Positions 15,301 through 38,012 of a DNA stretch of 62,577 nt are shown one piece after another. The notes under the pieces are model-generated. The model saw nothing but the letters and a program-made list of their open reading frames with translations, was not told where the DNA came from and did not search any database. Within the stretch, counting starts at the first letter, position 1. Every line of letters begins with the position of its first letter. The stretch covers positions 1-62,577 of the forward strand of contig JAUWNL010000001.1 in the NCBI GenBank assembly GCA_030612665.1, written 5' to 3'. The translations under genes and the position numbers were made by a program. The DNA is from an archaeon. GTDB taxonomy: Archaea; Nanobdellota; Nanobdellia; Pacearchaeales; UBA284.

Positions 15301-16059
15301 GAAAGTAGTTATATGATATTGGAGCAAGTCCCAGAGATCTTCTATAATAACTTCAGGAGCTCCGGCATTTAAATTCTCCCACAGCCTTTGATTTGCCCTG
15401 ACAATGTCCCCAAGTTTATGAGTCAAGTCATCTTCACTTCTTTCCCCTGTTTCAAGTGTAATGCTTGGTCTGACAGTTACAGGAGGAACTAATACAAGAG
15501 TAAGTACTGCCCACTCTGGTCTAAATGTTTTTGGATTTATTCCAAACAATGAAAGATCTTTGTCAGATACTTTCACTAGCTTCGCACGAATTTCACTAGG
15601 GAAAATCCTTGATTTACCTTGATAAAAAGTACTTGGTTTCTCGAGTTTAATTTTATCCTGCTTTGTGCCACAATATGGGCATTTCTTCGCAGTCTTTGCT
15701 TTGAGAATTCTTTTAAGACCAATATCTTTTTCATCAAGAAGAATCCTAGCACATTCTTGGCAAGTTGATCGAAGAATTAATTCAATAATTGAAGCAAAGT
15801 TAACATGGATAACTGGTCTAGCTAATTCAATAAAACCAAAATGTCCAAAACATTCTTTGAGTTTTCCCCCGCAGGTTCTGCATCTTACCCCAGGGTCTAT
15901 TGCCCCTAAACGAAGATCCATCAAACCTCCGTCAACAGGATAACCATCCATATCATAAAGTTCTGGAGTAACAATTTTAGCTACCCCCATTTTCTTAATC
16001 TGTTCAGGAGAAAAAATACTAAACTTAATTGCCTTGACTTGTTTTGTTATTGGCTCCAT
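12394..16059 (-). CDS. rpoA: DNA-directed RNA polymerase subunit A, with A' and A'' parts fused in one 1221-aa ORF
   Basis: Zinc motif CRTCGGKLKECFGHFG and catalytic YNADFDGDEMNVH mark the A' part. The trigger-loop GEAIGVITAQSFGEPSTQMTLNVFHFAG marks the A'' part. Both lie in one frame with no stop. The C-terminus has a K/T/A-rich tail. Confidence 0.95.
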   Translation of the reverse strand: MEPITKQVKAIKFSIFSPEQIKKMGVAKIVTPELYDMDGYPVDGGLMDLRLGAIDPGVRCRTCGGKLKECFGHFGFIELARPVIHVNFASIIELILRSTCQECARILLDEKDIGLKRILKAKTAKKCPYCGTKQDKIKLEKPSTFYQGKSRIFPSEIRAKLVKVSDKDLSLFGINPKTFRPEWAVLTLVLVPPVTVRPSITLETGERSEDDLTHKLGDIVRANQRLWENLNAGAPEVIIEDLWDLLQYHITTFFNNSISHVPPARHRSGQPLKTITERIKGKQGRIRHNLAGKRVNFSSRTVISPEPFMKINEVGVPYAIAKVLTIPERVTLDNIDYLKGLIKRKEYPAATGIIRPDGKKKRITDELREQIYEEIVPGYIVEKHLQDGDVVLFNRHPSLHRMSLMAHFVKVLPDRTFRIHPITTFPYNADFDGDEMNVHVPQTEEARAEAKVLMDSQKQLISPKNNTNVFGCIDDATTGLYLLTQDKFPKEEAVQLLATSGLTSGEISKSSNSFRNIVDGKEIFSVCLPKTNFEAKSRSCKGKECPHYNKCKKENCPYNSYISIKNGKMISGVVDNNLVGVEQSTLIRHLDSVIGREKTIEFLRKIFLLGINYLTRKGFTISIKDIQTSKELIKEKDKIVNDAEKKVKNIIQSYYDGSLNIIPGKTLEETREVKSLQSLNAVRGKVGDLLNGSLKQGMSLTNPAYTMILSGSHGNMINITQMSCLVGQQTLWAKRIDLGYNNRTLSFFKEKDLSPRAHGFITSSYLSGLDPDEFFFSAITGRDSLMDTALRTPKSGYLYRRLVNALQDLRIEYDGTVRDANSRLIQFKYGDDGIDVSKKHLPDNKITPGEAIGVITAQSFGEPSTQMTLNVFHFAGVSEMQITVGLPRLIEIFDARKKPSTPAMEIYLERDYDNEKDAKRMAARIKEIKLIDVASEINLNFLDKKIQVLLDNEMLRNLHLTPERIIKAFEAKESKLFKIRKNEKGLMIRAKKEDFQDFKQLFKLKEKLKNTIVSGVKGIKQILLVKRENKYVILTGGSNLEEIFEIKGIDKHRTTSNDIHEIAKVLGIESARQAIVNEISKVITQQGLDVDDKHIKLVADAMTSGGIIRGVTRVGIIRDKSSILARASFETPIKHFINASLKGSTDHLVSVVENVMLNQPIPVGTGLPGLLVKISAQDALALARKKEKKQEGKQKEKKAKPAKIVKPAKTSKTTKTTKAKK

Positions 16060-16383: not shown

Positions 16384-19300
16384 TTATTCATATTTATTTT
16401 TTAATATTAAATGAGGAAAAATATGCAATGCTCCAAGCTCTTCGAGTAATAATTTTGAAGCATATGAAATTTCTATTGGCTCTAGACTCACTTGGCCACA
16501 AATAGGACAAACCTCGCGCTTTCTAATCCTGTCTTTAATTCCAAGGGCACCACATTGAGGGCAAACATAAGCAATAATATTATCAGAACCAAATCTTTCT
16601 TTTAATAGCAAAGAAGCTCCGTGAGCTACAAGAGCATCTTTTTCCATCTCCCCAAGTCTAAGGGCTCCGCCCTTAGCTCTGCCTTCAACAGGCTGACGAG
16701 TAAGTAAGGTGACTTTTCCAGAAGCTCTCATCTGTATTTTATTAGCCACCATATATTTTAACTTAAGATAATACATATTACCAATGAAAATCTTAGCCTT
16801 GAGAGGCTTGCCTGTCAAACCATCATATAAAGTTTCTTTTCCATCTGGTCTGAAACCAAGATCAAGAAGTTGATGCTCAATTTCCTCAATCTTTTGTCCA
16901 GAAAAAGGTGTTGCATCAACTGATTTTCCAGATAAACATCCAATTTTTCCAGCAAGTAATTCAATAAGATAACTAACAGTCATTCTGCTTGGAATTCCAT
17001 GAGGATTAAAAATTAAATCTGGTCTAACTCCCTTGGAAGTGAAAGGAATATCTTCTTCAGGGGCAATCAATCCAATGACTCCTTTTTGTCCGTGAGTTGT
17101 TGAAAATTTATCTCCAGGTTCAGGACTTCTATAATCTCTGGTTCTAACCTGGACAATCCTATTGCCTTCTTTATCAATTGTAATAAACACTGCGTCTATT
17201 GTTCCTTTTTCTCCTTGCCTTATAACAACACTGTTTTCTTTTTTAGACCTTGCCAAGCTTATCTCTTCCATTTCAAGCAAAAACTTTGGAGGGGAAGTCT
17301 TTCCAATAACAACCTCTTCTTCCTTTAGATTAGCTTCAGGATAAACAATTCCATCATCTTCAAGGAATTTGTAGGACTTTTCAGTTCTATAACCAGTTAT
17401 GTCTTTTGTAGGAATACAAAATTCATCTTTAAGATTTCCAGTATAACGCAATGCAACACTAGAATATGGTCTGAAATAAGTGCTCCTACTTAATCCTCTT
17501 TCAAGGCTTCCTTTGTTCATAACAAGGGCATCTTCAAGATTATATCCTTCATAAGGCAGAAGTGCGACAACCATGTTTTGTCCTGCTGGGTAAAAATTAG
17601 TTGCATCATAAAGAAAACTCCTTACAATAGGTTTTTGAGGATAATGCAAAATACTGACATCAGTATCAATAAGACTCTGAAAGTTTGCAGCATAAATCCC
17701 TAAAGATTGCTTCTGTGTCTTGCTTCCACGATTAAGTCTTGAAGCTCCGTCGTAGTTAGCAAAAGGAACAAGTCCAGTGATTAAACCAAGCATTGCGATA
17801 GAATCAATTTCAACATGAGTAGATGTAGATTCAATATTTTTTTTAGTCATTGCAATAAAACAATTATCTTCCTCAGCAGCATCAACATATTCAATAATTC
17901 CTTTAGTAATTAAATCATTCCAATTTAATTCCCCATTTTTAATATCTCTAATATGTTTCTTAGTCAACAAAGACTTTCCCTCTTTTACAACAACAAGTGG
18001 TCTCAACACACGTCCAGATTCACCACTTATTGTGATAATATTAGTAGACCTATCATGTCTGATACATAAATCGTGAGGAATCTCATCGCCTCTTCTTTTT
18101 TCTTTAAAACTTAAAAGAAAATTCCCAGCATCCTCGATACCACCAAGAAATTTTCCATTATAAAAAACATCAACATATCCTTTATTTATTTCTTTTTTCA
18201 ATCCAATTCCTTGAAGAAGAGAGATAAACTTTTTCTCATCAACCTCAATAAAGGTAGTTACTCTAGCAAGTAAAGCGAGATTTTTTCTGAGGCCAATCGG
18301 TGTTCCTTCAGGTGTCTCGATTGGACAGAATCTTCCAAAATGAGTAGGGTGTAATGTTCTTGCCTTGAAATTTTCTTGTTCACTAGGTAATAAACTAACA
18401 ACACGCTGGAGTTGAGAAAGGATAGATAATCTATTTGTTTTATCCATATTCTGGGTTGTTCCAGTTCTCTCCCCTACCCATGATCCAGTGGCTATTGCAC
18501 TTTTAATTCTATGAGAAAATAATGTTGATTTTGCCATGCTCTTCAGAGAATAAAATTTTTTCTTCTTTGCAATTTTTTGAAGACTGTGCTGCAAGTCACG
18601 AATAAAAATAGTCAAATTTAGCCTAAAAAGATCAAAAAGCAAATCCCCGCTCAATCTAACACGCTTGTTAGAATAATGGTCCTTGTCACTCACCATCTTC
18701 AATTCCTTGGTCATAACTAAAAAATATTTAATAAGTTTACATAAAGTCACAGCTTTTTCATATCTATCTTGTTGTTTTGTTCCAAGATGAGGCAACAGGG
18801 CAGAATCAATTCTGGTCTTGAGTCTATCAAGAACTTCTTTTTGTGTTCCCTGAATATTCATTTTTCCAGCCAAAGCAACAAGAGCTTCTTTTGAATCTTT
18901 GATAGAAGCATATTCATATAAATTAACAATAAAACTATCTGTCTCTCTTTCAATAAGATTTGCAATATCTTCATCGCGGGTAACACCAAGAGATTTAATT
19001 AAAAGTAAGGCAGGCAAATTTTTAAAACGAGAAAAAGAAACTAAAATCATCCCTTCATTTGTTTCAATAATAGAAATGGGGATTCTATAACTTCCTCGTT
19101 TAGAAAAAAGCCTTAGCATAGGTCCCTTTGTAGTTTTTTCAATAAATGGCTGGTTTGGAGCAAGATCTTCAATCATTACAAGAACTCTTTCATTTCCATT
19201 AATAATAAAATATCCTCCAGTATCATCCGGGTCTTCGTAATTTTCAACTAACTCCTCTCGAGACATGCCATAAAGATTACAGCATTTACTCTTAACCATG

Positions 19301-19818
19301 ATTGGAATCCTGCCAATTTCAACATTATTAAATTCCTTTCTATCAAGTCCGGTGCTAATTTCAAGAGTAACTGGAGCAGAATAAGTAAGCTTCCTTAACT
19401 TAGCTTCAATAGGCAATATAGTGTGGGAAGAACCATCTGCTTCAATAATGACTGGTTTCCCAACTTTAATTTTTCCAAGATTTAATTCAACTTCATCTTT
19501 AGAAATGTCCTCATTAATTGAATCAATAATTTGTTGGAGTCTTTTTTCAATAAAAGCATTATAAGAAGTAAGATTAGATTCAACAAGGGAATATTCTTTA
19601 AGGTATTTTTTAATAAGGATATGTTCTCTCTCTTCCTCTTCTTCCCCGCCTGCTTCTTCTTTCCCTTTTTCTTCTTCTTTCTCTACCTCTTCTTTTCCTT
19701 CCTCTCCTTTTCCTTTCTTTTCTTCTCCTTCTTTCTTTTCTTCTTCTTCTGGCTTTTCTCCTACTTTTTCTTTCTTATTTTCAATTTTCTTATTTTTCTC
19801 AGGTTCTACTTCAGCCAT
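16384..19818 (-). CDS. rpoB: DNA-directed RNA polymerase subunit B (unsplit) with ~65-aa E/K/G-rich N-terminal extension
   Basis: GDKFSTTHGQKGV, RMTVSYLIE and LRLGEMEKDAL motifs, plus the C-terminal zinc ribbon CPQCG...CPICG. Length is 1144 aa. Confidence 0.95.
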   Translation of the reverse strand: MAEVEPEKNKKIENKKEKVGEKPEEEEKKEGEEKKGKGEEGKEEVEKEEEKGKEEAGGEEEEEREHILIKKYLKEYSLVESNLTSYNAFIEKRLQQIIDSINEDISKDEVELNLGKIKVGKPVIIEADGSSHTILPIEAKLRKLTYSAPVTLEISTGLDRKEFNNVEIGRIPIMVKSKCCNLYGMSREELVENYEDPDDTGGYFIINGNERVLVMIEDLAPNQPFIEKTTKGPMLRLFSKRGSYRIPISIIETNEGMILVSFSRFKNLPALLLIKSLGVTRDEDIANLIERETDSFIVNLYEYASIKDSKEALVALAGKMNIQGTQKEVLDRLKTRIDSALLPHLGTKQQDRYEKAVTLCKLIKYFLVMTKELKMVSDKDHYSNKRVRLSGDLLFDLFRLNLTIFIRDLQHSLQKIAKKKKFYSLKSMAKSTLFSHRIKSAIATGSWVGERTGTTQNMDKTNRLSILSQLQRVVSLLPSEQENFKARTLHPTHFGRFCPIETPEGTPIGLRKNLALLARVTTFIEVDEKKFISLLQGIGLKKEINKGYVDVFYNGKFLGGIEDAGNFLLSFKEKRRGDEIPHDLCIRHDRSTNIITISGESGRVLRPLVVVKEGKSLLTKKHIRDIKNGELNWNDLITKGIIEYVDAAEEDNCFIAMTKKNIESTSTHVEIDSIAMLGLITGLVPFANYDGASRLNRGSKTQKQSLGIYAANFQSLIDTDVSILHYPQKPIVRSFLYDATNFYPAGQNMVVALLPYEGYNLEDALVMNKGSLERGLSRSTYFRPYSSVALRYTGNLKDEFCIPTKDITGYRTEKSYKFLEDDGIVYPEANLKEEEVVIGKTSPPKFLLEMEEISLARSKKENSVVIRQGEKGTIDAVFITIDKEGNRIVQVRTRDYRSPEPGDKFSTTHGQKGVIGLIAPEEDIPFTSKGVRPDLIFNPHGIPSRMTVSYLIELLAGKIGCLSGKSVDATPFSGQKIEEIEHQLLDLGFRPDGKETLYDGLTGKPLKAKIFIGNMYYLKLKYMVANKIQMRASGKVTLLTRQPVEGRAKGGALRLGEMEKDALVAHGASLLLKERFGSDNIIAYVCPQCGALGIKDRIRKREVCPICGQVSLEPIEISYASKLLLEELGALHIFPHLILKNKYE

Positions 19819-23383: not shown

Positions 23384-23456
23384 AGCGCGGGGAGGGACTC
23401 GAACCCTCGAATAGTCGGGTTGCAGCCGACTGCCGTAGCCGCTGAGCCACCCGCGC
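23384..23456 (-). tRNA. tRNA-Cys (GCA), 73 nt, no encoded CCA
   Basis: The reverse complement folds as a cloverleaf. Acceptor GCGCGGG/CCCGCGC, anticodon stem GTCGG/CCGAC with loop CTGCAAC, T-arm GAGGG-TTCGAGT-CCCTC, and discriminator U73. It forms a GC-rich island in AT-rich DNA. Confidence 0.9.
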
Positions 23457-23591: not shown

Positions 23592-23708
23592 TGGGTCCAA
23601 CGTGACTCGAACACGCAACCCCTAGCTATCTTCGTTTTCTCTCCAGGGTCTCTTTCCTAAAGAGAGCCTTTAGAAGGCTAGTGCTCTATCCAATTGAGCT
23701 ATGGACCC
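23592..23708 (-). tRNA. tRNA-Arg (TCT) with a ~43-nt intron at the canonical 37/38 position (about 23628..23670)
   Basis: Acceptor GGGTCCA/TGGACCC and D-arm GCTC-AATTGGATA-GAGC. The anticodon stem CTAGC/GCTAG is interrupted after CTTCTA. T-arm GCGTG-TTCGAGT-CACGT. The mature length would be 74 nt. Confidence 0.85.
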
Positions 23709-23738: not shown

Positions 23739-24449
23739 TTACCTATTAGTGTTATTTCTATTAAAATTATGGACATTAGAAAAAGACATGCTTTGATTAA
23801 ATAAAGTACTTTGGTTTTTACCATGTGTTTTAGCATACTTCAAAGCTATATTTGCTTTATCAAATAAATCATCTTTGCTCCCAGATTCATTTATTGGCAT
23901 GAATTTCTTATAAAGATTTTTACTTTTATCAAAAATACTCTTCGCCTGAGCCTGCTCGCCATTATTCTCGCAGGCAATACCAGCACTAATCGTCAAGTTA
24001 TATGATTTCAAAAAAGGATCATTTAGTACCATAGTTCTCAGTCTTTCAGCCATCTCTTTTGCCCTATCGATTTTTGTTTCAGGAAGTAAAACAGTAAACT
24101 CTTCTCCTCCAAATCTTGCAGGAACATCAGTGTCTCTGACATTGTTTCTGATAATAGATGAAACCCTCTTCAGCATCTCATCACCCATTTTATAACCATA
24201 TTTATCATTAATCTTCTTAAAATCATCAATATCGACGAGAATCATGGCAATAGCCCTCTTGTATCTTTGAGCAATAGCAACCTCATGCTTTACTTGTGTT
24301 TCAAAATATCTAGAATTATATAAATTAGTTTTTGTATCTCTAGTAGCTAATCGATAAAGCTTGGCAACTTCCTGCATATTATACTGGAATTTTTTTTCAG
24401 GCCTGGTTGTAAGTGCCTTCTTGACCTTTCTAACAATCTTCTTAATCAT
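23739..24449 (-). CDS. GGDEF-domain protein (diguanylate cyclase homologue) with RxxD I-site
   Basis: LVDIDDFKKINDKYGYKMGDEMLK...RDTDVPARFGGEEFTVLLPET...ISAGIA...ALKYAKTHGKNQ. I trimmed the start to MIKKIV because the longer ORF (to 24542) would overlap the divergent tatD start. Confidence 0.85.
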   Translation of the reverse strand: MIKKIVRKVKKALTTRPEKKFQYNMQEVAKLYRLATRDTKTNLYNSRYFETQVKHEVAIAQRYKRAIAMILVDIDDFKKINDKYGYKMGDEMLKRVSSIIRNNVRDTDVPARFGGEEFTVLLPETKIDRAKEMAERLRTMVLNDPFLKSYNLTISAGIACENNGEQAQAKSIFDKSKNLYKKFMPINESGSKDDLFDKANIALKYAKTHGKNQSTLFNQSMSFSNVHNFNRNNTNR

Positions 24450-24521
24450 CTTAAAAAATAATAAATTTAATACAAAAAAGATGTTCGATATGTTTAAAAA
24501 TTTAACCCTTTTCACAATATT

Positions 24522-25310
24522 ATGATAGATTGCCATTGCCATCTAGAACAAAAGCAATATCAAGAAAACAGAGAAAAGATTATTCAAGAATCAAAAAAAG
24601 AACTCAAAGCTATAGTAACTTGTGCAGCACATCCTAAAGACATTCAACTCACAATAGACCTTACAAAAAAACACAAGAAATTTATTTTCGCAGCCCTTGG
24701 AATTCATCCAACATACATAAAAGAAATAACAGAACAAGAAATAGAAGCAGCAATCAAAGAAATAAAGAAAAACAAAGATAATATTGTTGCAATAGGAGAA
24801 ACAGGCCTTGATTATCATTGGATAAAAGAACCAGAAGCGAGAGAAAAACAGAAAATTCTTTTTAAAAAACTCATCACTCTTGCAAAAGAACTTGACAAAC
24901 CTTTAGTCATTCATAGTTGGGATGCAACAGCAGAAACAATAAATATCTTAGAACAACAAGGAATGAAAAATAAAAAAGTCCTCATGCATCTTTTCTCAGA
25001 TAGAAAAGTTATTCAAAAAGTCATAGAAAATGGCTGGCTAGTTTCAATTGGACCAGGAATAAAGAAAAGCAAGGATATAAGAAAAATAGCAAGAGATACT
25101 CCCCTAAATAAAATCTTGCTCGAAACAGACTCGCCATGGTTTCAACAAGAAGACCAAGAATATGGAATTCCTAACAATGTCAAAATCCCTTGTCAAAAAA
25201 TCGCTGAAATAAAACAAGTTTCACTTGCAGAAGTTGAAAAACAAACAGATTTAAATGCAATTAACTTTTTCAATCTGAAAATAGAAAGATTTAAAAAGAT
25301 TGTATCATAA
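24522..25310 (+). CDS. tatD: TatD-family metal-dependent hydrolase/DNase
   Basis: MIDCHCHL metal-binding start, GETGLDYHW, VIHSWDA and ETDSPW motifs. Confidence 0.9.
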   Translation: MIDCHCHLEQKQYQENREKIIQESKKELKAIVTCAAHPKDIQLTIDLTKKHKKFIFAALGIHPTYIKEITEQEIEAAIKEIKKNKDNIVAIGETGLDYHWIKEPEAREKQKILFKKLITLAKELDKPLVIHSWDATAETINILEQQGMKNKKVLMHLFSDRKVIQKVIENGWLVSIGPGIKKSKDIRKIARDTPLNKILLETDSPWFQQEDQEYGIPNNVKIPCQKIAEIKQVSLAEVEKQTDLNAINFFNLKIERFKKIVS

Positions 25311-25319
25311 AGTATACAT

Positions 25320-25898
25320 ATGTATCAAAAAGGAAACAAAGAATTAGAAATTTTATGTTTGTATTTGGGGGATTATATTAAAAGTTTTTATCTTAGAGAA
25401 ATAAGCAAACTTTCAAAACTGCCCCTTAAGACAACTCAAAATATCCTTAAAAAATTAGAAGAAAAAAAGATATTGAAAGCAGTACTACATGGAAAAAACA
25501 AATATTTCTCTTTAAATTTAGATAATATAGAAACAAAAAATTATATTTTGCAAGCTGAGATTTATAAAACAAATCTTTTAATTAAAAAATATCCAATTTT
25601 CAAAACCTTCCTTAAAGAATTAAAAAGCACTTCTTTATTAGTAATTTTTGGTTCTTTTGCTCAATTTATTGCAAGAAAAGATTCTGACTTGGATTTACTT
25701 ATTGTACCAAAAAAAGAAAAAGAAGAAATCCCGTTACATTTATTGCCTTATAAAATTCATAAAATAAGTTTAAATGAAAAAAATTTTTTGAAAGCAGTTG
25801 AATCAGAAGAAAAAATTATAAAAGAAATTTTTAAAAATCATGTAATTTTAAATAATCATTCATTTTTTGTGAATATAGCCTGGAATAAAATCTCATAA
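25320..25898 (+). CDS. wHTH plus nucleotidyltransferase-domain protein (NTase partner of the downstream HEPN gene)
   Basis: N-terminal wHTH-like LREISKLSKLPLKTTQNILKKLEEKKIL. NTase motif VIFGSFAQFIARKDSDLDLLIV. Confidence 0.7.
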   Translation: MYQKGNKELEILCLYLGDYIKSFYLREISKLSKLPLKTTQNILKKLEEKKILKAVLHGKNKYFSLNLDNIETKNYILQAEIYKTNLLIKKYPIFKTFLKELKSTSLLVIFGSFAQFIARKDSDLDLLIVPKKEKEEIPLHLLPYKIHKISLNEKNFLKAVESEEKIIKEIFKNHVILNNHSFFVNIAWNKIS

Positions 25899-25918
25899 AA
25901 TAAAGGGAATAAAATGAA

Positions 25919-25942
25919 AATCAAAGATTTTCATCTTTGATT
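25919..25942. other. 10-bp perfect hairpin (AATCAAAGAT-TTTC-ATCTTTGATT) in the spacer between the NTase and HEPN genes
   Basis: Read directly from the sequence. Its function (processing site, terminator/attenuator or protein-binding site) is unknown. Confidence 0.5.
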
Positions 25943-25965
25943 GAAAATTTATAATTTTCAACAAA

Positions 25966-26433
25966 ATGGATAAAAGAAAACTTAGATGGTGTTTTAAGAT
26001 TAAAGATGGTTTAAAAATAAAAAAGCCTAATTTAGATCTGGCAAGATCTTATTTAGAAGAATCTAAGAAATCCTTAAAAAGTGCACAAGAAAGATTAGAT
26101 AAGAAAGATTATTTATGGGCAACAGTAATTATTTATTATGCAGAATATTATGCTTTATATTCTTTTTTACAAAGAATTGGTATAAAATGTGAAAATCATT
26201 CGTGTTCAATTTTGACTGTTCAATTTTTACTAGGAAAAGAAAAAATAAAAACAATTGAAGAGCATAAAGATAAAAGGATAGATGCCCAGTATTATATAAA
26301 AATTGTTGAAGAAATAAAAATCGAAGAAATGTTAAGAGAAGCAAAGATATTTGTTTCAGAATTTGATAATTTAGTTTCAGGGCTATCTGAATCAGAAATA
26401 AACAATTTTAGAAAAAATTTGAAGGTAAAATAA
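25966..26433 (+). CDS. HEPN-domain protein
   Basis: All-helical, with SYLEESKKSLKSAQERLDKKDYLWATVIIYYAEYYALYSFLQRIGIKCENHS typical of NTase-associated HEPN proteins. It lies downstream of an NTase gene. Confidence 0.65.
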   Translation: MDKRKLRWCFKIKDGLKIKKPNLDLARSYLEESKKSLKSAQERLDKKDYLWATVIIYYAEYYALYSFLQRIGIKCENHSCSILTVQFLLGKEKIKTIEEHKDKRIDAQYYIKIVEEIKIEEMLREAKIFVSEFDNLVSGLSESEINNFRKNLKVK

Positions 26434-26477: not shown

Positions 26478-26744
26478 ATGGACATATTGACTATCCTCAT
26501 CTTAACAATAATAGCTCTTGCAGGTTTTCCAATAGGCTTGCTTATAAAAAAGTTCACGCCTGAAGAACTAAAATCAGGAAAAAAATGGTTTAACATTATT
26601 ATTTTCATCTGCGTCATAGCAATAATTGCCACAGTCCTTCTTGCAAAAGGAGAAACAATGATTTTTTTATTCACAAGCCTTTTATTCATAATCCTTTTGA
26701 CATTACCATCATTAATTAAATTCAAAAAGAAAAAGAAGAGGTAA
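26478..26744 (+). CDS. Small membrane protein (3 TM helices, basic C-terminus)
   Basis: Hydrophobic helices ILTILILTIIALAGFPIGLLI, IIIFICVIAIIATVLL and IFLFTSLLFIILLTL. Confidence 0.5.
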   Translation: MDILTILILTIIALAGFPIGLLIKKFTPEELKSGKKWFNIIIFICVIAIIATVLLAKGETMIFLFTSLLFIILLTLPSLIKFKKKKKR

Positions 26745-26758
26745 AAAGAAAAAATAAA

Positions 26759-27460
26759 ATGTTATATCTCATTGGTCTAGGGCTTGATAAAAAAGACATT
26801 AGTCTCTCGTCTCTAGAAGCAATAAAAAAATGCAAGAAGATTTATCTAGAACATTATACAACAACTCTCCCTTATACAAGAAAAGAGCTCGAAAAAATAA
26901 TCAAGAAAAAAATTCAATTAATAGAGCGAGAGAAAGTCGAGTCAGACTTTCTTATTAAAGAAGCAAAAAAACATAACACTATTCTCTTAGTTTATGGAGA
27001 TCCTCTTATAGCCACAACACACATCGCCCTAATTAATGATGCAAAAAAAACAAGAGTCAAGACAAAAGTCCTTCATAATGGTTCTGTCATAAGTGCCATA
27101 GCACAAACAGGCCTACAGATATACAAGTTTGGAAAAACAACAAGCATTCCAAGATGGCAAAAAAATTACAGACCAACATCTTTCTTTGATACAATAAAAG
27201 ATAATCAATCAATAAATGCTCATACTCTTGTTTTAGTTGACATAGGTCTTAGTCTCGAAGAAGCTCTTTATGAACTTAACGAAGCTTCAAACAATGAAAT
27301 TAATAATATAGTTATCTGCTCACAACTTGGAACATCAAAACAACAAATTGTCAATAACTCGATAGACAATTTCATCAAAAAACCACCAAAAGTCAAAGAA
27401 CCTTTTTGTATCATTGTCCCAGCCTCTCTACACTTCTCTGAAGAAGAAGTTTTATTCTAA
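26759..27460 (+). CDS. dph5: Diphthine synthase
   Basis: MLYLIGLGL start, YLEHYTT, LLVYGDPLIATTH and the class III tetrapyrrole-type methylase layout. Confidence 0.9.
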   Translation: MLYLIGLGLDKKDISLSSLEAIKKCKKIYLEHYTTTLPYTRKELEKIIKKKIQLIEREKVESDFLIKEAKKHNTILLVYGDPLIATTHIALINDAKKTRVKTKVLHNGSVISAIAQTGLQIYKFGKTTSIPRWQKNYRPTSFFDTIKDNQSINAHTLVLVDIGLSLEEALYELNEASNNEINNIVICSQLGTSKQQIVNNSIDNFIKKPPKVKEPFCIIVPASLHFSEEEVLF

Positions 27461-27481: not shown

Positions 27482-28393
27482 ATGAAAAAAGAATTAAGAA
27501 AATTAATGATAAGAGAGATAAAAAGAATCACAAGGCAATTAAAAAAAGATTCAGGCATTGTTTCAATAATTCAATTTGGCTCTTCTCTAAAGCCAAGAGA
27601 AATGTTTTCTAACAGTGATATTGATTTTGTTGTTATAACAAAAAGAAAAAGAAAACAAAGATCCATTTATATTAAATCTAACTTTGAATCAGACTTTCTT
27701 GTTTATTCGAAAAATGAATTCAAAGAAATGCAAGAAAAAGGTCATCCTATAGCATTAACAGCTATAAATTTTGGCAAGATTCTTTATAATAAAGATAAAG
27801 GCTTCAAATTAGAACAAGTAGAACCAACAGAACTTACAATAAAGACATGGATGAATAATGGCATGAATGTTTTTAATTCAGCAATAATGGAATATTTTGC
27901 TATGGGATGTCCATGTTGTTATCTTAAAGCTGTTCATCATTCAGCGAGAAATCTTTTGAAAGCTCTTATATTAAAAAATAAAGATATTTTATGTCAAACA
28001 AATAAAGAAATTCTCCAAAATCTTCCAAGAAAATACCAAAGAAAATACCAAAAACTCATCAATTACAGAAAAAACCTCAATGATTTCGAGTTTGATATAG
28101 AAAAGATATTAAAAATCAAGAAAATTAAAGGCAAGACAGCCAAACCCCTATTATGCCTCGAATCTCTTGTTCACAATATAATCTTTGAAATGAAACAAAA
28201 GAAAATGTATTCATTAAGGGAAATTATCAACAAAGCAGAAGAAAAAATAAATTATATAAATTATGACCATATTAACTTAATATATTTTTCCAGAGACTTA
28301 AAACAATATTTCATAAATCTTGTTTTAAATAATCAAGATAAAAAAGATTATAAGCCGAAAATGAAATTCTTGAGATTTCCATTATTCAAATAA
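27482..28393 (+). CDS. Fused nucleotidyltransferase plus HEPN/KNTase_C-like protein (303 aa)
   Basis: NTase motif IIQFGSSLKPREMFSNSDIDFVVI, followed by a helical C-terminal half (AVHHSARNLLKALILKN). The last 18 codons lie inside direct-repeat copy 1. Confidence 0.6.
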   Translation: MKKELRKLMIREIKRITRQLKKDSGIVSIIQFGSSLKPREMFSNSDIDFVVITKRKRKQRSIYIKSNFESDFLVYSKNEFKEMQEKGHPIALTAINFGKILYNKDKGFKLEQVEPTELTIKTWMNNGMNVFNSAIMEYFAMGCPCCYLKAVHHSARNLLKALILKNKDILCQTNKEILQNLPRKYQRKYQKLINYRKNLNDFEFDIEKILKIKKIKGKTAKPLLCLESLVHNIIFEMKQKKMYSLREIINKAEEKINYINYDHINLIYFSRDLKQYFINLVLNNQDKKDYKPKMKFLRFPLFK

Positions 28394-29091: not shown

Positions 29092-29176
29092 AATTCTTGA
29101 GATTTCCATTATTCAAATAAAAGTTTAAAAATCCCCTTTCCTTTAATAAAATATGAAAAAGCAGGCAAAAAGAGGA
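29065..29176. repeat. Direct repeat copy 2, covering the upstream region and first codons of the 1379-aa surface-protein gene
   Basis: See copy 1. Copy 2 contains the real ATG at 29153 (MKKQAKRG...). Copy 1 contains a decayed version (MKKGVKRGK-stop). Confidence 0.9.
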
Positions 29177-32100
29177 CTCCTATTAATTGGACTTTTCTTT
29201 ATCATGTTTCTTGTCATTATTTCAGGAGTTGAAGCTGACAGCAAATGGATGGGTTGGGGAGGTGGATGTGCATTTCCGGGTGCTCCAACTTGTAGTCCTT
29301 ATATCCCAGATTATTCCGGAGCAAATTGTGCAGATAAATTTGGATATGACTGGGTAGAATATTATTCTTGGGGTTATCGTGGGTGGAAATCTGTATCAAC
29401 AGGAGATTCTTGGAGTAGTACGAGTGGAGATGGAATGGTTGGAATAAATCCAGAAGTACCAGGATTTACGAGTTTAGATATCAAATTTTCTGAAAAAGCT
29501 GGTGGATGTACATGGCCAGCCAAACAATGCCAATCTGTTTATAGATGTATTGAATGTGGTACTAATGAGGCTAACTGCAACAAACAAGGAGTAGATGGTT
29601 GTGAAGTATATCTTAAGACAGATGAAAATAATTGTGGTTCATGTGGAAATAAATGTTATTCAGGTTACACATGCATAAATGGCGTGTGTACTCCTCCACC
29701 AAGATATACCTGCAACGAGAATTATCAATGTGTTCAAGATCCAAGTGGGCAATATTCCTCATTACCCGCATGTGAAGCAGAATGCTATCCAATTACAACT
29801 AATTGTGATTCTTGTGAAAGTTGTTCTGAAGCATTAAACAATGCGCCTGCTGGAACAACAGTTAAGTTAACTCAAAATATAATAGATGAAAGACTTGGGA
29901 ATACTATTTGTATTGATTTGTCGCCAGGGGAAGAGGATGTTATTTTTGATTGTCAAGGATATAGCATATCTGGCCTTGGTAAAACAGAAGATACAGGAAT
30001 AAATATATTCGCTAATTGGAACCCAACTGTAAGAAATTGTATTATTAACAATTTCAGATATGGAATATCTACATTTACAGGAGGCACAAAGATAATTAAT
30101 AATATTATAGAAGATAATTATTATGGAATCTGGGGAGGTGGTTTTGAACAATATTGGAGTTATATCGAGGATAACACAATAAAGAACAATGATTATGGTT
30201 TTTATTTACAAAGTGGAGGTTCTGGGGTGAGTTATGATCTAAAAGATAATTATATATGTAATAACATAGAATATGATACGGTAATAGGAGATAGCTGGTA
30301 TCAACAAGCAGGAGACTTATGGCTTGGAACAGATAACTGGTGTGATAATTATTATCTTTGGTATGACAAACCAAATGTGCTTCCTAATGAAGGATGTACT
30401 TTGCCTTGCACAGGTTTAGAAAGAATAGGAATTTATCCTTCTGAAGCAAATATCAAATTACAAGATTACATCTCTTACAATGTCACAGCCCATTACCCAA
30501 ATAAACAGATAGATGTCACACTAAATGATTTAACTGCTTATGTTAAAAGTAATGATAATGTTGAGCAATTAACACCTAGAAACAAATTCCGTGCAAAATT
30601 AATAGGAGAAACAAATATAACAGCACATTTCCCTATGGGAATGCTAGAAGAAAAAGAAGATACAACACATCTAACAATCTGGCCAGATACTAACTGTGAA
30701 ATTAATATTGCTGAAATCATTCTAGATTGCGGAGGAGATATTTGTGAAATAGGAGAAAATATTAAACTTAATCTTTCAATGAATCTTGGTTGTCAACAAG
30801 AAAATATTAACAAAATAAAAATTTATGCTACAGATTTTGATGAATGTGAACTTTGGATGTCTTCTGATGATTTAGAATGCGAGGAATATGGAATGCCAAC
30901 AAAATATAATTGCACTGGAACATGGGATATAGAAAGTATAGAACAAGAATGTTATGATAGTAATGTTGGAGCTATATTTGCTGAAGCATGGCAAGATGAT
31001 AATTTCCTTGATTCTTTATCAGGACAATTTGGCTCATTTCAATTTTGGGGACCAACATGTGAGATAACATCTGCGAGTATAACTCCATGGTGTAAAGAAA
31101 CAGGACAACAAGAAGGAGATGGCCAAGATGATCCTTGTGGTGATGAGTGGGGAGATAAAATTTTCCTTGAAGCAGAATTTGAAAATTGTCCGCAAGTTGA
31201 CAGTCTTGAAATAACAGTTGAAGATGGTGATTGTAGTTATCCAATGACTATTTCTTGTGGAGGATCAGCTAATTGTTCTGGCTACCATATACTTGCTGGA
31301 ACCCCTAAAGGTTGTGAAAATGATTTAGTTGTAGCAACCCAGGCAAAATTATTCTATGACAATCAAGAAATAGCAACAGGAGAAGCCACAGGTTTGTTTT
31401 ATTTTGGCGATTTAGTATTAGACTATATAGACTTAATTCCGAACTATGTAACTCTTTTTATCAATAATTATATTGAATTTGACGTCTTTGCTTACTTTGT
31501 CAATAATCCAAATCCTCATGAAATCACATTCGATGATTTAACAAGTTATGAGCTTGAAGCAGGTGAAACTAGATTAGAACAAGATACAATTCAAAAGAAT
31601 AAATTTTGGGCAAGAGCAGAAGGAACAGAAATTCCAATTATAGCAAAATATCCTATGGGATATCCTCATGAAGAAATATCAGAACCCTCACATGTGGACA
31701 TATATGGAGAAACAGATTGTGAGATCCTTAATGCTAAAGCAGCAGCAAAATGTGGTGATGATGGATGCAGATATGATAGTGGAGATTATATTGAATCATA
31801 TGTTATAGTAAATTCTGTTTGTATAAAGGATTTATATATGGACAGATTTAAAATGCTTGCCTGGGGAGATGGTTGTGAAGTTGAAATAAATATAGGTGAA
31901 GGAAGCCAAAATAATATGGAATGTGAATCCTATAACGGAAATTATAATTGTTCAGGCCAGTGGATTGTTGATTCTGAACACTGCCAAGGATCTTGTGAAG
32001 GAATTCCAGATATCAGAGATGGTGCTCATGTAACAACAAAATTAGTTGAAGTTTCTAATCCAAATAGACCCTTAGATTCTTCGTACAATGAGGTAGGTTT

Positions 32101-33292
32101 TGGAGGATTCAGTTTCTGGCCAATCATCGACAGAGTAAGAGCAGTAATAAATATGCCAGAAAACAACGAGATTCTTGATGAAAAAACTGTTATCTTCAAT
32201 GCCTCAAAAAGTTATTATATTGATGAATATTCACAACATGTTTATTGTCCTGATGCTCATCTTGATTTTACATGGAAATTAGATGGTCAAACATTCCAAG
32301 GAGAAGATTGTGAAGCTGAAGTAGTTTATCATCAATATTCCCAACCAAAAAATAATTATCAAGTAACACTTGAAGCAGAATACAATGGAGATGAAGATGA
32401 AGTAACTCATAATTTTAAAATAAAATATTGTATCAAAGATAATGCAAAATTCTTTTCTGGAGATTGTAAATTAATTAATAATCAAGGATATAGATGCACA
32501 GATTCATGTTTTGAAGATATATGTATGGTTTCAAATGATTGTCATAGCGGGGGTGAATGTCGTTGCGGATCGAATTTATATTGTAATCAAAATGATGTAT
32601 GTAGTAGTGATCCAGGAGCAAGTGAATGTGAAGAAGAAGATAATCCTGCAGCATGTTTAGCTGCTCTAGCCTCATGTTATTGGGATTATAATGAAGATTT
32701 AGACCCAGAGCCGCCCTCTCATTTTGAGATTCCACCAAAATGTAAACACTGTGATGATAATAGTAATAATCCAGATTATGATTATGGTAGTCTTACATGT
32801 ACTCATTGTTCAAATTATGTTGATCCATCAAGTTGTGAAGCAGATCATTGTTTCTTAGGAAACGAAGAGCATGGTGATTGTCCTCTAGATTTTAGTTGCT
32901 CAAATTATGAATGTACGTGGGATAGTTTATCATCAGCATGTAAGTTAGTTTATGATAAAACCCCTGAAGGTCAAGGAAGTCAACAACAATGTCATGAATC
33001 AAGAACTTATGGAGATTGTGTTGGAGGTTATATGAATGTAGAAATCACAACAGAATGTTGTAGTATACAAGATTTAGGTAGCCCTACAGGAAATTGTGAT
33101 CCAATGCCAACTAGTTGTAGTTTTGGTACAGGATTACATTTAGTTTCATGTGACACAACCACATACCCACAGCCTTGTGGCATAGTGACAAGAGCATTGC
33201 CAGGATTTGGCTGGCTTAACTTTATTATAGTTATATTTTTAATTTCAGTTTATTATGTAATCTATGTAATATTTATTTTGAAAAAGAGATAA
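29153..33292 (+). CDS. Giant (1379 aa) Cys-rich secreted surface protein: signal peptide, right-handed beta-helix (PbH1/NosD-like) repeats, duplicated Ig-like plus Cys-knot modules, PKD-like segment, C-terminal TM anchor
   Basis: Signal LLLIGLFFIMFLVIISGVEA. Beta-helix repeats NCIINNFRYGIS / INNIIEDNYYGIWGG / IEDNTIKNNDYGFYL. Two homologous ~190-aa modules start near IGIYPSEANIKL and LDYIDLIPNYVTL. The C-terminal helix is WLNFIIVIFLISVYYVIYVIFIL. Confidence 0.8.
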   Translation: MKKQAKRGLLLIGLFFIMFLVIISGVEADSKWMGWGGGCAFPGAPTCSPYIPDYSGANCADKFGYDWVEYYSWGYRGWKSVSTGDSWSSTSGDGMVGINPEVPGFTSLDIKFSEKAGGCTWPAKQCQSVYRCIECGTNEANCNKQGVDGCEVYLKTDENNCGSCGNKCYSGYTCINGVCTPPPRYTCNENYQCVQDPSGQYSSLPACEAECYPITTNCDSCESCSEALNNAPAGTTVKLTQNIIDERLGNTICIDLSPGEEDVIFDCQGYSISGLGKTEDTGINIFANWNPTVRNCIINNFRYGISTFTGGTKIINNIIEDNYYGIWGGGFEQYWSYIEDNTIKNNDYGFYLQSGGSGVSYDLKDNYICNNIEYDTVIGDSWYQQAGDLWLGTDNWCDNYYLWYDKPNVLPNEGCTLPCTGLERIGIYPSEANIKLQDYISYNVTAHYPNKQIDVTLNDLTAYVKSNDNVEQLTPRNKFRAKLIGETNITAHFPMGMLEEKEDTTHLTIWPDTNCEINIAEIILDCGGDICEIGENIKLNLSMNLGCQQENINKIKIYATDFDECELWMSSDDLECEEYGMPTKYNCTGTWDIESIEQECYDSNVGAIFAEAWQDDNFLDSLSGQFGSFQFWGPTCEITSASITPWCKETGQQEGDGQDDPCGDEWGDKIFLEAEFENCPQVDSLEITVEDGDCSYPMTISCGGSANCSGYHILAGTPKGCENDLVVATQAKLFYDNQEIATGEATGLFYFGDLVLDYIDLIPNYVTLFINNYIEFDVFAYFVNNPNPHEITFDDLTSYELEAGETRLEQDTIQKNKFWARAEGTEIPIIAKYPMGYPHEEISEPSHVDIYGETDCEILNAKAAAKCGDDGCRYDSGDYIESYVIVNSVCIKDLYMDRFKMLAWGDGCEVEINIGEGSQNNMECESYNGNYNCSGQWIVDSEHCQGSCEGIPDIRDGAHVTTKLVEVSNPNRPLDSSYNEVGFGGFSFWPIIDRVRAVINMPENNEILDEKTVIFNASKSYYIDEYSQHVYCPDAHLDFTWKLDGQTFQGEDCEAEVVYHQYSQPKNNYQVTLEAEYNGDEDEVTHNFKIKYCIKDNAKFFSGDCKLINNQGYRCTDSCFEDICMVSNDCHSGGECRCGSNLYCNQNDVCSSDPGASECEEEDNPAACLAALASCYWDYNEDLDPEPPSHFEIPPKCKHCDDNSNNPDYDYGSLTCTHCSNYVDPSSCEADHCFLGNEEHGDCPLDFSCSNYECTWDSLSSACKLVYDKTPEGQGSQQQCHESRTYGDCVGGYMNVEITTECCSIQDLGSPTGNCDPMPTSCSFGTGLHLVSCDTTTYPQPCGIVTRALPGFGWLNFIIVIFLISVYYVIYVIFILKKR

Positions 33293-37949: not shown

Positions 37950-38012
37950 GAATAATAACAAGAATAATAAGGGTAAGAAATTATTAAGGAAATAAGAATA
38001 ATAAGGGTAAGA
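37934..38012. repeat. Imperfect tandem duplication (~46 plus 33 nt) that repeats the last codons and stop of the preceding gene
   Basis: ATTATTAAGGAAATAAGAATAATAA occurs at 37934 and 37980. AAGAATAATAAGGGTAAGA occurs at 37961 and 37994. Confidence 0.7.

What the first reader, a model, noticed from the sequence alone, without database searches (positions are those of the whole stretch)
23739..24449. GGDEF diguanylate-cyclase homologue with intact active site and I-site in an archaeal genome
The ORF has the full GGDEF-domain pattern (DIDDFKKINDKYGYKMGDEMLK, GGEEF, SAGIA). It also has an RxxD inhibitory site (RDTD) exactly five residues upstream of GGEEF. The N-terminal region is short, with no obvious sensor domain. 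As far as I know, c-di-GMP signalling is regarded as essentially bacterial and GGDEF domains are rare in archaea. I see no EAL, HD-GYP or PilZ domain in this window. The window does contain a type IV pilus-like ATPase and two processive GT2 synthases, and these are the classes of machinery that c-di-GMP controls in bacteria. The gene is divergent from tatD and adjacent to two tRNA genes, a typical landing site for acquired DNA.
Basis: partly seen in the sequence, partly recalled or inferred. Interest (0 to 1): 0.65.

Follow-up and report, generated by a model that had tools for sequence, protein, structure and literature searches.

The report
Genuine diguanylate cyclase gene in DPANN archaea
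A small archaeon with a reduced genome carries a real, well-conserved, vertically inherited copy of the enzyme that bacteria use to make the signal molecule c-di-GMP, so this "bacterial" signal may also operate in one branch of the archaea, although no receptor or degrading enzyme for it has been found.

Summary
Window 23739-24449 (-) encodes a 236-aa single-domain GGDEF protein (Pfam E 5e-39). It has GGEEF, the metal and guanine-binding residues, and an RxxD I-site exactly five residues upstream.

The window is archaeal (Nanoarchaeota/Pacearchaeota-like DPANN). It has Rpb1/Rpb2-type RNA polymerase, TrmB, diphthine synthase and an intron-bearing tRNA.

The gene is neither contamination nor a recent insertion:
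- The identical protein occurs on 7 independently assembled contigs.
- Relatives at 48-61% identity keep the block dph5 - small membrane ORF - tatD <-> GGDEF -> tRNA-Arg(UCU). Two of these loci have an archaeal 16S rRNA within 10 kb.
- dN/dS is 0.08-0.16.

A larger family of ~196-aa stand-alone GGDEFs, also near dph5, is found across Nanoarchaeota MAGs. Of the 120 best hits, 119 keep both GG[DE]EF and RxxD.

Best reading: an N-terminal-helix-plus-GGDEF, product-inhibited diguanylate cyclase acquired long ago, presumably from bacteria, and since retained. The donor lineage is unresolved.

No EAL, HD-GYP, PilZ, MshEN or c-di-GMP riboswitch was found in the window or in the flanks of the related loci examined. 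Whole genomes could not be scanned.

Archaeal GGDEF hits are already in databases and mentioned in reviews, but specialists have suspected contamination. This is a new member of a known kind, of moderate to high interest.

The parts
23739..24449 (-). GGDEF gene, 236 aa plus stop. Layout: N-terminal helices aa 1-36; GGDEF core aa 37-165 and 195-220; clade-specific insert aa 166-194; Asn/Ser-rich tail aa 221-236.
   Evidence: Pfam and NCBIfam. AF2 mean pLDDT 82.9, with the core above 90. Foldseek gives probability 1.0 to WspR, PleD, DgcR and DgcB. The identical protein sits on 7 contigs. dN/dS is 0.08-0.16.
24096..24110 (-). Active-site (A-site) motif GGEEF, aa 114-118.
   Evidence: Read from the sequence. 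G114, G115, E117 and F118 are invariant and E116 is conserved in at least 90% of 52 family members. GG[DE]EF is present in 119 of the 120 best hits.
24126..24137 (-). Primary inhibitory site RxxD (R105-D-T-D108), five residues upstream of GGEEF.
   Evidence: Read from the sequence. R105 and D108 are invariant. RxxD is present in 119 of 120 hits. R136, the equivalent of PleD R390, is conserved in at least 90%.
24180..24233 (-). Substrate-binding segment D73-I-D-D-F-K-K-I-N81-...-G-D90. D73 is the metal-binding Asp (PleD D327). N81 and D90 are the guanine-specific pair (PleD N335 and D344).
   Evidence: Alignment to PleD. D73, D75, N81 and D90 are invariant in the family.
23868..23954 (-). Clade-specific insert between the SAGIA strand and the last helix. 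It contains a conserved [S/N]xYxxF...MP motif.
   Evidence: Pfam aligns only profile positions 1-146 of 161. pLDDT is 47-60. Alignment of 21 clade members.
24450..24521 (.). A 72-bp AT-rich divergent intergenic region shared with tatD. It presumably holds both promoters.
   Evidence: The equivalent spacer is 52-85 bp in L001, L003, L005 and L094. Promoter function is inferred and was not tested.
24522..25310 (+). tatD-family hydrolase, a conserved divergent neighbour.
   Evidence: Pfam TatD_DNase E 1.5e-62. It is the same neighbour in L001-L005 and L091-L094.
23592..23708 (-). tRNA-Arg(UCU) with a 43-nt intron at the canonical anticodon-loop position, 31 bp downstream of the GGDEF stop. A conserved neighbour.
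   Evidence: Rfam 56 bits. ARAGORN with introns allowed. The same tRNA follows the GGDEF gene in L001, L003 and L005.
23384..23456 (-). tRNA-Cys(GCA).
   Evidence: It also follows tRNA-Arg in L005.
26759..27460 (+). Diphthine synthase (dph5-type TP_methylase). This is the positional anchor shared with the 196-aa GGDEF family.
   Evidence: Pfam. 54% identical to L090 Dph5. It lies next to the GGDEF gene in 9 of the 10 distinct related loci examined.
26478..26744 (+). Small (88 aa) membrane ORF beside dph5, in the same position as small ORFs in related loci.
   Evidence: 86-88-aa ORFs sit at the same place in L001, L003, L005 and L094. L090 s78 matches L001 weakly (E 4e-6) but not the window.
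25320..26433 (+). Nucleotidyltransferase/HEPN pair inserted between tatD and the small ORF/dph5. It is a lineage-specific insertion, not part of the GGDEF unit.
   Evidence: Pfam Polbeta and HEPN. It is absent at this place in L001, L005 and L094.

Best explanation
The gene encodes a genuine, chromosomally fixed, single-domain diguanylate cyclase of a Pacearchaeota-like member of the Nanoarchaeota (DPANN archaea).

Proposed mechanism:
1. The 236-aa cytoplasmic protein consists of a short N-terminal helical stalk and one GGDEF domain. This is shown by the model and the alignment.
2. Two copies pair, probably through the N-terminal helices as in coiled-coil-GGDEF cyclases. Each holds one Mg-GTP. 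D73 and E116/E117 would bind the metal, N81 and D90 the guanine, and R112 and K207 the phosphates. This is inferred from residue-for-residue identity with PleD.
3. The pair condenses 2 GTP to c-di-GMP plus 2 PPi (inferred).
4. c-di-GMP then binds the RxxD I-site (R105, D108, plus R136) and locks the domains in a non-productive arrangement, which caps the concentration (inferred).
5. There is no sensor domain. Output would therefore be set by expression, by an unknown partner, or by the clade-specific insert.

The gene entered this archaeal lineage long ago, presumably from bacteria, and has been inherited vertically under purifying selection. Its downstream receptors and degrading enzyme are unknown and may be non-canonical.
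For: Domain and residues:
- Pfam E 5.4e-39 and TIGR00254 E 2e-43.
- All catalytic, guanine-specific and I-site residues match PleD. They are invariant or at least 90% conserved across 52 family members.
- 119 of the 120 best hits have GG[DE]EF and RxxD.

Fold:
- The AF2 core has pLDDT above 90.
- The best Foldseek hits are the GCN4-zipper-WspR GGDEF fusion 3i5c, WspR, DgcR, PleD, the DgcB coiled-coil-GGDEF and SiaD.
- The 196-aa family has an amphipathic ~35-aa N-terminal helix.

Genuinely archaeal:
- The window holds archaeal RNAP, TrmB, dph5 and an intron-bearing tRNA.
- Related loci hold an archaeal SSU rRNA (1307 bits) 7.8 kb from the gene, exosome subunits, SBDS, proteasome alpha, S6e, and aIF2-gamma/aIF5B-type initiation factors.
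- The identical protein is on 7 independent contigs.

Old and selected:
- Synteny is conserved down to 48% identity, including the downstream tRNA-Arg(UCU).
- dN/dS is 0.08-0.16.
- GC is ordinary.

Not a defence module:
- There is no PADLOC hit, and the neighbours are housekeeping genes.
Against: - No enzymatic data exist for any archaeal GGDEF. c-di-GMP has never been detected in an archaeon (PMC8646023, PMC10249747).
- No EAL, HD-GYP, PilZ or MshEN domain and no c-di-GMP riboswitch turned up in the 62-kb window or in the ~10-kb flanks of the related loci. A complete signalling circuit is therefore not demonstrated.
- The N-terminal helix is short and modelled with low confidence (pLDDT 55-77), so dimerisation is an assumption.
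- R446 of PleD is Lys in this protein.
- Simple NJ trees do not resolve whether this clade and the 196-aa family share one origin, or which bacteria were the donor. In an exhaustive search, many long bacterial GGDEFs score as high as the 196-aa archaeal family.
Confidence: 0.7

Rival explanations
1. The gene sits on bacterial DNA that was mis-binned or mis-assembled into an archaeal contig. Specialists have suspected this for archaeal GGDEF and HD-GYP hits in MAGs.
For: Galperin and co-workers voice exactly this doubt (PMC5847659; bioRxiv 10.1101/2021.11.05.467447). Two related contigs carry bacterial labels, Patescibacteria and Omnitrophota.
Against: - The gene is flanked on both sides, within one 62-kb contig, by archaeal genes and an intron-bearing tRNA.
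- The identical gene and neighbours were assembled 7 times independently.
- An archaeal 16S lies on the same contigs as two relatives.
- The two 'bacterial' contigs encode S6e, aIF2-gamma/aIF5B-type factors and archaeal-type Dtd2. L011 has the full Nanoarchaeota gene order with TrmB 81% identical. The labels are therefore wrong, not the genes.
- GC is ordinary.
Confidence: 0.02
2. The gene is a recent horizontal acquisition that landed next to tRNA genes.
For: The gene lies next to two tRNAs. The GGDEF family is overwhelmingly bacterial. GC3 is mildly raised (z 1.96). A nucleotidyltransferase/HEPN pair has been inserted nearby.
Against: - tatD <-> GGDEF -> tRNA-Arg(UCU) is conserved in relatives at 48-61% protein identity, and in L005 tRNA-Cys follows as well.
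- There is no integrase, no repeat-flanked island and no GC anomaly.
- The window clade is a bootstrap-supported group of short proteins: 88-91% for 22-24 sequences. All 7 members whose contigs were read lie beside tatD, 3 of them amid archaeal core genes.
Confidence: 0.04
3. The domain is intact, but the physiological product or role is not c-di-GMP signalling. It could be a Hypr-type cGAMP or other dinucleotide synthase, a GTP or c-di-GMP binding protein, or a nucleotide-signal generator of a defence system (mCpol- or CBASS-like).
For: - No canonical c-di-GMP partner genes were found nearby.
- GGDEF enzymes with other products exist (Hallberg 2016, cited in PMC10249747).
- There is a faint mCpol hit, E 0.14.
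- In one relative a DAC (c-di-AMP synthase) lies two genes away.
Against: - The specificity position is Asp (D90, equivalent to PleD D344) and is invariant, not the Ser that I recall (unchecked) as the Hypr signature. N81 is also invariant.
- There is no PADLOC hit, no adjacent effector, and the context is stable housekeeping genes.
- The mCpol hit is far below threshold (13 bits against 26.4).
Confidence: 0.12
4. The window clade and the ~196-aa Nanoarchaeota family are two independent acquisitions, or an in-situ replacement, rather than one ancient gene.
For: - The mean distance from the window clade to the 196-aa family is as large as, or only modestly smaller than, its distance to bacteria. 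One alignment gives 1.14 against 1.03-1.13 for the nearest bacterial sequences. The other gives 1.03 against 1.28 for all remaining sequences.
- Monophyly of all the short proteins is never recovered in 100 bootstraps.
- Many long bacterial proteins score 130-175 bits, against 126-147 for the 196-aa family.
- The immediate neighbour differs: tatD in one group, dtd2 in the other.
Against: - Both groups lie 1.3-2.3 kb from dph5, in the same relative orientation, with small ORFs in between. One of those small ORFs is weakly homologous across the two groups (E 4e-6).
- They share the stand-alone helix-plus-GGDEF architecture and an intact I-site.
- The nearest sequences by mean distance are mostly short stand-alone proteins.
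Confidence: 0.3

Closest known systems
PleD / WspR / DgcR-type diguanylate cyclases (PDB 1w25, 2v0n, 3bre, 6zxm)
   Same: - Same GGDEF fold: Foldseek probability 1.0, and target-normalised TM up to 0.89 to isolated GGDEF domains such as GcbC 5euh and 3ign.
- 28-32% identity.
- Identical A-site (GGEEF), metal, guanine (N/D) and phosphate (R/K) residues.
- Identical RxxD I-site spacing and the R390 equivalent.
   Different: It has no REC or other sensor domain. It is only 236 aa. A 29-aa disordered insert follows the SAGIA strand. PleD R446 is Lys here. The host is an archaeon.
Coiled-coil/stalk + GGDEF minimal cyclases (GCN4-WspR fusion 3i5c, Caulobacter DgcB 6ttr, Pseudomonas SiaD 7e6g)
   Same: The architecture is an N-terminal helix followed directly by a GGDEF domain. 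These are the top structural matches over the whole length.
   Different: The stalk here is shorter and of low model confidence. No partner such as SiaC is known. Dimerisation was not tested.
The ~196-aa stand-alone GGDEF family of Nanoarchaeota/Pacearchaeota MAGs (e.g. P0022, P0050, P0095)
   Same: 36-44% identical. Same helix-plus-GGDEF layout, same intact A- and I-sites, the same archaeal phylum, and a position close to dph5.
   Different: They lack the insert and the C-terminal tail. They follow dtd2 rather than facing tatD. A sister relationship is not resolved by the trees.
Methanocella arvoryzae RCIX2274 (CAJ37382), long cited as the only archaeal GGDEF
   Same: A GGDEF domain encoded in an archaeal genome (PMC5847659; bioRxiv 10.1101/2021.11.05.467447).
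   Different: According to those papers it is a REC-PAS-PocR-GGDEF-HD-GYP multidomain protein found in a single genome. The protein here is single-domain and belongs to a family spread over many DPANN genomes. The two sequences were not compared here.
Hypr GGDEF cGAMP synthases (Geobacter GacA; PDB 6d9m)
   Same: GGDEF fold. 6d9m is among the sequence and structure matches.
   Different: From memory, the Hypr signature is Ser at the PleD D344 position. Here that residue is an invariant Asp.

Membership tests
GGDEF domain diguanylate cyclase (PF00990 / TIGR00254) | Profile match above the curated cut-off | tested here: met
   PF00990 scores 134 bits against 23.8. TIGR00254 scores 147.9 against 37.4.
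GGDEF domain diguanylate cyclase (PF00990 / TIGR00254) | GG(D/E)EF active-site motif with catalytic and metal-binding acidic residues (PleD D327, E370, E371) | tested here: met
   GGEEF is at aa 114-118. D73 is equivalent to D327. The residues are invariant or at least 90% conserved in 52 relatives.
GGDEF domain diguanylate cyclase (PF00990 / TIGR00254) | Guanine-specific residues (PleD N335, D344) and phosphate-binding residues (R366, K442, R446) | tested here: met
   N81, D90, R112 and K207 are invariant. The R446 position is Lys in the window protein and Arg in the family consensus.
GGDEF domain diguanylate cyclase (PF00990 / TIGR00254) | Allosteric I-site RxxD five residues upstream of GGDEF. 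This is a feature of product-inhibited members and is not obligatory. | tested here: met
   R105-D-T-D108, then five residues, then G114. Present in 119 of 120 homologues. The R390 equivalent, R136, is conserved.
GGDEF domain diguanylate cyclase (PF00990 / TIGR00254) | Palm-like alpha/beta GGDEF fold | tested here: met
   The AF2 core has pLDDT above 90. Foldseek gives E about 1e-17 to 1e-13 against more than 50 solved GGDEF structures.
GGDEF domain diguanylate cyclase (PF00990 / TIGR00254) | Homodimerisation that brings two GTP-loaded domains together | tested here: inconclusive
   An N-terminal helix is predicted, and the 196-aa relatives have an amphipathic pattern there. No multimer modelling or experiment was possible.
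GGDEF domain diguanylate cyclase (PF00990 / TIGR00254) | Conversion of 2 GTP to c-di-GMP | not testable with these tools
   This needs purified protein and HPLC or LC-MS.
Complete c-di-GMP signalling circuit | A phosphodiesterase (EAL or HD-GYP) in the same genome | tested here: inconclusive
   None among about 48 window ORFs scanned with Pfam. None by motif scan of 326 ORFs. None in the precomputed Pfam lists for the related loci. Only about 62 kb of an estimated 0.6-1 Mb genome was visible.
Complete c-di-GMP signalling circuit | A receptor: PilZ, MshEN, a degenerate GGDEF/EAL domain, or a c-di-GMP-I/II riboswitch | tested here: inconclusive
   The GT2 synthases have no PilZ. The T2SSE ATPase has no T2SSE_N/MshEN. 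Rfam at gathering threshold finds no riboswitch in the window or in 5 related loci. The whole genome was not available.
Hypr GGDEF (cGAMP synthase) | Ser instead of Asp at the PleD D344 position | tested here: not met
   D90 is invariant. The Ser signature is taken from my memory of Hallberg 2016, which was not read here.
Defence-system nucleotide cyclase (mCpol / CBASS-like / type III CRISPR-associated) | A match to defence-system models and an adjacent effector gene | tested here: not met
   PADLOC gives no hit for the protein. The Pfam mCpol hit is 13 bits against 26.4. The neighbours are tatD, tRNAs and dph5.

The most novel reading that the evidence does not exclude
c-di-GMP (or a closely related GGDEF product) is a working second messenger in a large, uncultivated branch of the DPANN archaea (Pacearchaeota/Woesearchaeota-like Nanoarchaeota). 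It would be made by a single stand-alone, feedback-limited cyclase that these tiny genomes have kept since early in the clade's history. It would be read by receptors and removed by enzymes that are not the canonical PilZ/MshEN/EAL/HD-GYP set, possibly to control surface structures used for attachment to host cells.
Probability: 0.35. Interest if true: 0.8.

Novelty: new member of a known kind. Interest (0 to 1): 0.55.

Why it matters
Reviews state that c-di-GMP has never been detected in any archaeon and that diguanylate cyclases are almost exclusively bacterial (PMC10249747). The leading census authors treat archaeal GGDEF and HD-GYP hits from MAGs as possible contamination (PMC5847659; bioRxiv 10.1101/2021.11.05.467447). 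One paper noted more than 300 archaeal BLAST hits without analysing them (PMC8646023).

The evidence here removes the contamination doubt for one family. The gene is syntenic and under purifying selection. It is linked to archaeal rRNA, tRNA and core genes, and it is retained in genomes that discard most non-essential functions.

That makes 'does c-di-GMP signalling exist in archaea?' directly testable with one small soluble protein. It also points to a search for unknown receptors in organisms that depend on cell-cell attachment.

Tried and rejected
1. Genome-contig scan with the family alignment. No taxonomic census of archaeal species was obtained. The loci served only as bacterial outgroups. 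One of them (L011, labelled Omnitrophota) proved to be a mislabelled archaeal contig.

2. The listing of cluster members for 10 NCBI-sourced relatives. No names or accessions came back.

3. Neighbour-joining trees with bootstraps on two alignments. The window clade is solid (88-91%), but deeper nodes and a donor lineage are unresolved. No ML software was available.

4. Exhaustive representative search. It found 472,114 GGDEF relatives, 281 of them at E<=1e-30. Most of the high scorers are long multidomain proteins, so similarity alone does not tie the window clade to the 196-aa archaeal family.

5. Defence-system hypothesis. PADLOC was negative for the GGDEF. The tatD hit to QatD is generic TatD homology, and no QatA-C model matched the neighbouring ORFs scanned.

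6. The longer ORF start at 24542. It was rejected because it overlaps tatD and has no support in homologues.

7. The supplementary table of archaeal HD-GYP ORFs is not held.

8. Regex scan for PilZ, MshEN, EAL, HD-GYP and DAC motifs. The only match was a chance hit in RpoA.
Full report
**1. The observation**

The ORF lies on the minus strand. From the first ATG it would be 267 aa (23739-24542), but that start overlaps the divergent tatD gene. All 52 aligned homologues begin at the Met of MIKKIV. Gene callers on seven independent contigs give 236 aa.

Domain and motifs:
- Pfam GGDEF scores 134 bits, E 5.4e-39. TIGR00254 scores 148 bits.
- GGEEF is residues 114-118.
- RDTD is residues 105-108, followed by exactly five residues, as in PleD R359-D362/G368.
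- Residue-by-residue against PleD: D73=D327, N81=N335, D90=D344, R112=R366, E116/E117=E370/E371, R136=R390, K207=K442. PleD R446 is Lys here.

Neighbours and structure:
- tatD is divergent, 72 bp away.
- Two tRNAs follow the gene. tRNA-Cys was found by ARAGORN. An intron-bearing tRNA was found by Rfam only. ARAGORN with introns allowed shows that it is tRNA-Arg(UCU) with a 43-nt intron.
- AlphaFold2 gives mean pLDDT 82.9. The GGDEF core is above 90. The N-terminal helices score 55-77. The 166-194 insert and the tail are poorly modelled.
- Foldseek matches more than 50 solved GGDEF structures at probability 1.0. The top hits include the GCN4-zipper-WspR GGDEF fusion, WspR, DgcR, PleD, the DgcB coiled-coil-GGDEF and SiaD.

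**2. The genome is archaeal and the gene belongs to it**

The window (GC 30.5%) encodes:
- Rpb1- and Rpb2-type RNA polymerase subunits, TrmB regulators, a diphthine-synthase-type methylase and IleRS;
- RNase P p30, OapB/OapC, PAC2 and split ArgRS ORFs;
- Kae1/TsaD and archaeal-type pilus genes.

The gene's GC is ordinary (z 0.67). Its GC3 is slightly high (z 1.96). The identical protein, with the same neighbours, was assembled on 7 contigs from different samples.

**3. Relatives**

A search of 5.8 billion proteins gave 504 hits.
- The nearest 21 (41-96% identical, mostly 226-253 aa) form a clade with 88-91% bootstrap support.
- They are followed by a large family of ~196-aa stand-alone GGDEFs.
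- Every named member is labelled Pacearchaeota, Nanoarchaeota or Nanoarchaeia, with one exception labelled 'Patescibacteria'.
- 119 of the 120 best hits keep both GG[DE]EF and RxxD.

Genomic contexts:
- Window-clade members P0007, P0006 and P0011 (61, 59 and 48% identical) all show dph5(-) - ~86-aa ORF(-) - tatD(-) <-> GGDEF(+).
- These sit amid exosome subunits, SBDS, proteasome alpha, enolase and RNA polymerase.
- An archaeal SSU rRNA lies 7.8 kb away in L001, and a partial one in L003.
- tRNA-Arg(UCU) lies immediately downstream, intron-bearing in L001 and L003 and intron-less in L005. In L005 tRNA-Cys follows it.
- The tRNA adjacency is therefore ancestral to the clade and is not an integration scar.
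- dN/dS against the 96% and 92% relatives is 0.08 and 0.16.

The 196-aa family lies in a conserved Nanoarchaeota gene order: ArgRS - TrmB - IleRS - dph5 - small ORFs - dtd2 -> GGDEF ... RNase HII - SMC.

Two contigs carry wrong public labels:
- The 'Patescibacteria' contig (L089) encodes S6e and aIF2-gamma/aIF5B-type initiation factors.
- An 'Omnitrophota' contig returned by the genome scan (L011) has this full gene order, with TrmB 81% identical.
- Both are mislabelled archaeal contigs.

**4. Origin**

- Both archaeal groups sit 1.3-2.3 kb from dph5 in the same relative orientation. One intervening small ORF is weakly homologous between them. This argues for positional orthology.
- Sequence trees do not settle the matter. 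On one alignment the window clade is as far from the 196-aa family (1.14) as from the nearest bacterial domains (1.03-1.13). On another it is somewhat closer to the family (1.03) than to the remaining sequences (1.28).
- Monophyly of all the short proteins was never recovered in 100 bootstraps.
- In an exhaustive search of 1.84 billion representatives, many long multidomain (presumably bacterial) proteins score 130-175 bits, against 126-147 for the 196-aa family.
- The best GTDB bacterial hits were from Nitrospirae/Thermodesulfovibrio MAGs at 38-41% identity.
- I conclude that the acquisition was ancient and that the donor is unknown. One origin or two for the archaeal forms remains open.

**5. 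Mechanism**

Shown:
- a complete, conserved catalytic half-site, guanine specificity pair and I-site;
- the GGDEF fold;
- no sensor, transmembrane or receiver domain;
- an N-terminal helix, which in the 196-aa family is about 35 aa long and amphipathic, with 4-3-4-4-3 spacing.

Inferred:
- pairing through that helix;
- condensation of 2 GTP to c-di-GMP;
- product inhibition through R105/D108/R136.

The window clade has a clade-specific insert after the SAGIA strand with a conserved [S/N]xYxxF...MP motif. Its role is unknown; it could be a partner-binding or regulatory element.

**6. The rest of the circuit**

- Pfam scans of about 48 window ORFs and a motif scan of all 326 ORFs of at least 50 aa found no EAL, HD-GYP, PilZ or MshEN domain and no second GGDEF.
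- The two GT2 synthases and the T2SSE/T2SSF genes are 28-35 kb away, lack PilZ and T2SSE_N, and are not linked to the GGDEF gene in any relative.
- No c-di-GMP riboswitch reached Rfam thresholds in the window or in five related loci.
- PADLOC gave no defence-system match for the protein.
- These negatives cover only a fraction of each genome.

**7. What is known**

- Galperin et al. 2018 list Methanocella arvoryzae as the only archaeal GGDEF and question MAG-derived bacterial-type regulators (PMC5847659).
- The HD-GYP census repeats the contamination caveat (bioRxiv 10.1101/2021.11.05.467447).
- Braun et al. 2021 found no c-di-GMP in Haloferax or Sulfolobus. They note more than 300 archaeal GGDEF BLAST hits, many in Asgard and DPANN (PMC8646023).
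- Römling 2022 says that such proteins 'need to be confirmed in archaeal contigs' (PMC10086821).
- A 2023 review says that c-di-GMP has not been detected in any archaeon (PMC10249747).
- A groundwater study counts diguanylate cyclase genes in ultra-small prokaryote MAGs without separating archaea from bacteria (PMC9938205).
- I found no paper that analyses this family, its synteny or its conservation.

**8. Verdict**

The core interpretation, an intact diguanylate cyclase homologue in an archaeon, is supported. The 'landing site' reading is not.

The protein is a canonical GGDEF, so this is a new member of a known kind. Its value lies in showing that the gene is genuinely archaeal, old, selected and widespread in a DPANN clade. 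That makes archaeal c-di-GMP signalling a concrete, testable proposition.

Noticed in passing
window 40990-42711 (+), stop at 41620-41622: Arginyl-tRNA synthetase is interrupted by one in-frame TAA, directly after an (AATGAA)n Asn-Glu run. A tblastn alignment to the intact ArgRS of L090 runs straight through it. It could be a sequencing or assembly error, a split gene or a pseudogene. The other long ORFs are intact, so a change of genetic code is unlikely.
   Followed up: partly
window 12394-16059 (-) and 16384-19818 (-); L005 13375-20350: RNA polymerase subunit A is a single 1221-aa ORF containing Rpb1 domains 1-5. From memory, archaeal RpoA is normally split into A' and A''. Subunit B is unsplit here (1144 aa) but split (517 + 599 aa) in the relative L005.
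   Followed up: no
window 23868-23954 (-), aa 166-194 of the GGDEF protein: The window clade carries a 25-60-aa insert after the SAGIA strand. It contains a conserved [S/N]xYxxF...MP motif, is modelled as disordered, and is absent from the 196-aa family and from bacterial GGDEFs.
   Followed up: partly
window 2911-3803, 25320-26433, 27482-28393, 33302-34095: There are four nucleotidyltransferase/HEPN (MNT-HepT-like) loci within 62 kb, three of them two-gene pairs. The 27482-28393 locus is one ORF with only the nucleotidyltransferase domain detected. The pair at 25320-26433 is inserted between tatD and dph5 relative to L001, L005 and L094.
   Followed up: partly
L007 10589-11696: In one 195-aa family member's locus, a diadenylate cyclase (DAC, c-di-AMP synthase) lies two genes downstream of the GGDEF gene, after a dUTPase/dCTP-deaminase gene. 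This was not seen in the other loci.
   Followed up: no
L011 (DATJPO010000045.1) and L089 (Ga0369713_1000492): The public labels 'Candidatus Omnitrophota bacterium' and 'Patescibacteria group bacterium' are attached to contigs with archaeal content. L089 has S6e, aIF2-gamma and aIF5B-type factors. L011 has the Nanoarchaeota ArgRS-TrmB-IleRS-dph5-dtd2-GGDEF gene order. They are probably mis-binned.
   Followed up: yes
window 37530-38473 (+): OapB and OapC (origin-associated proteins) lie side by side. This suggests that a replication origin is close by, possibly in the 38.5-39.4 kb region.
   Followed up: no
window 4200-7496 (-), 29153-33292 (+), 34133-36715 (+): Three very large ORFs (1098, 1379 and 860 aa). 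Two have no Pfam match and one has only a PKD domain. Similar giant ORFs sit near dph5 in L001, L003 and L005. They are probably surface proteins.
   Followed up: no
window 9253-10461 (+): A 402-aa archaeal ORF whose only Pfam match is bacterial Sigma-70 region 4 (E 2e-8) at its C-terminus.
   Followed up: no
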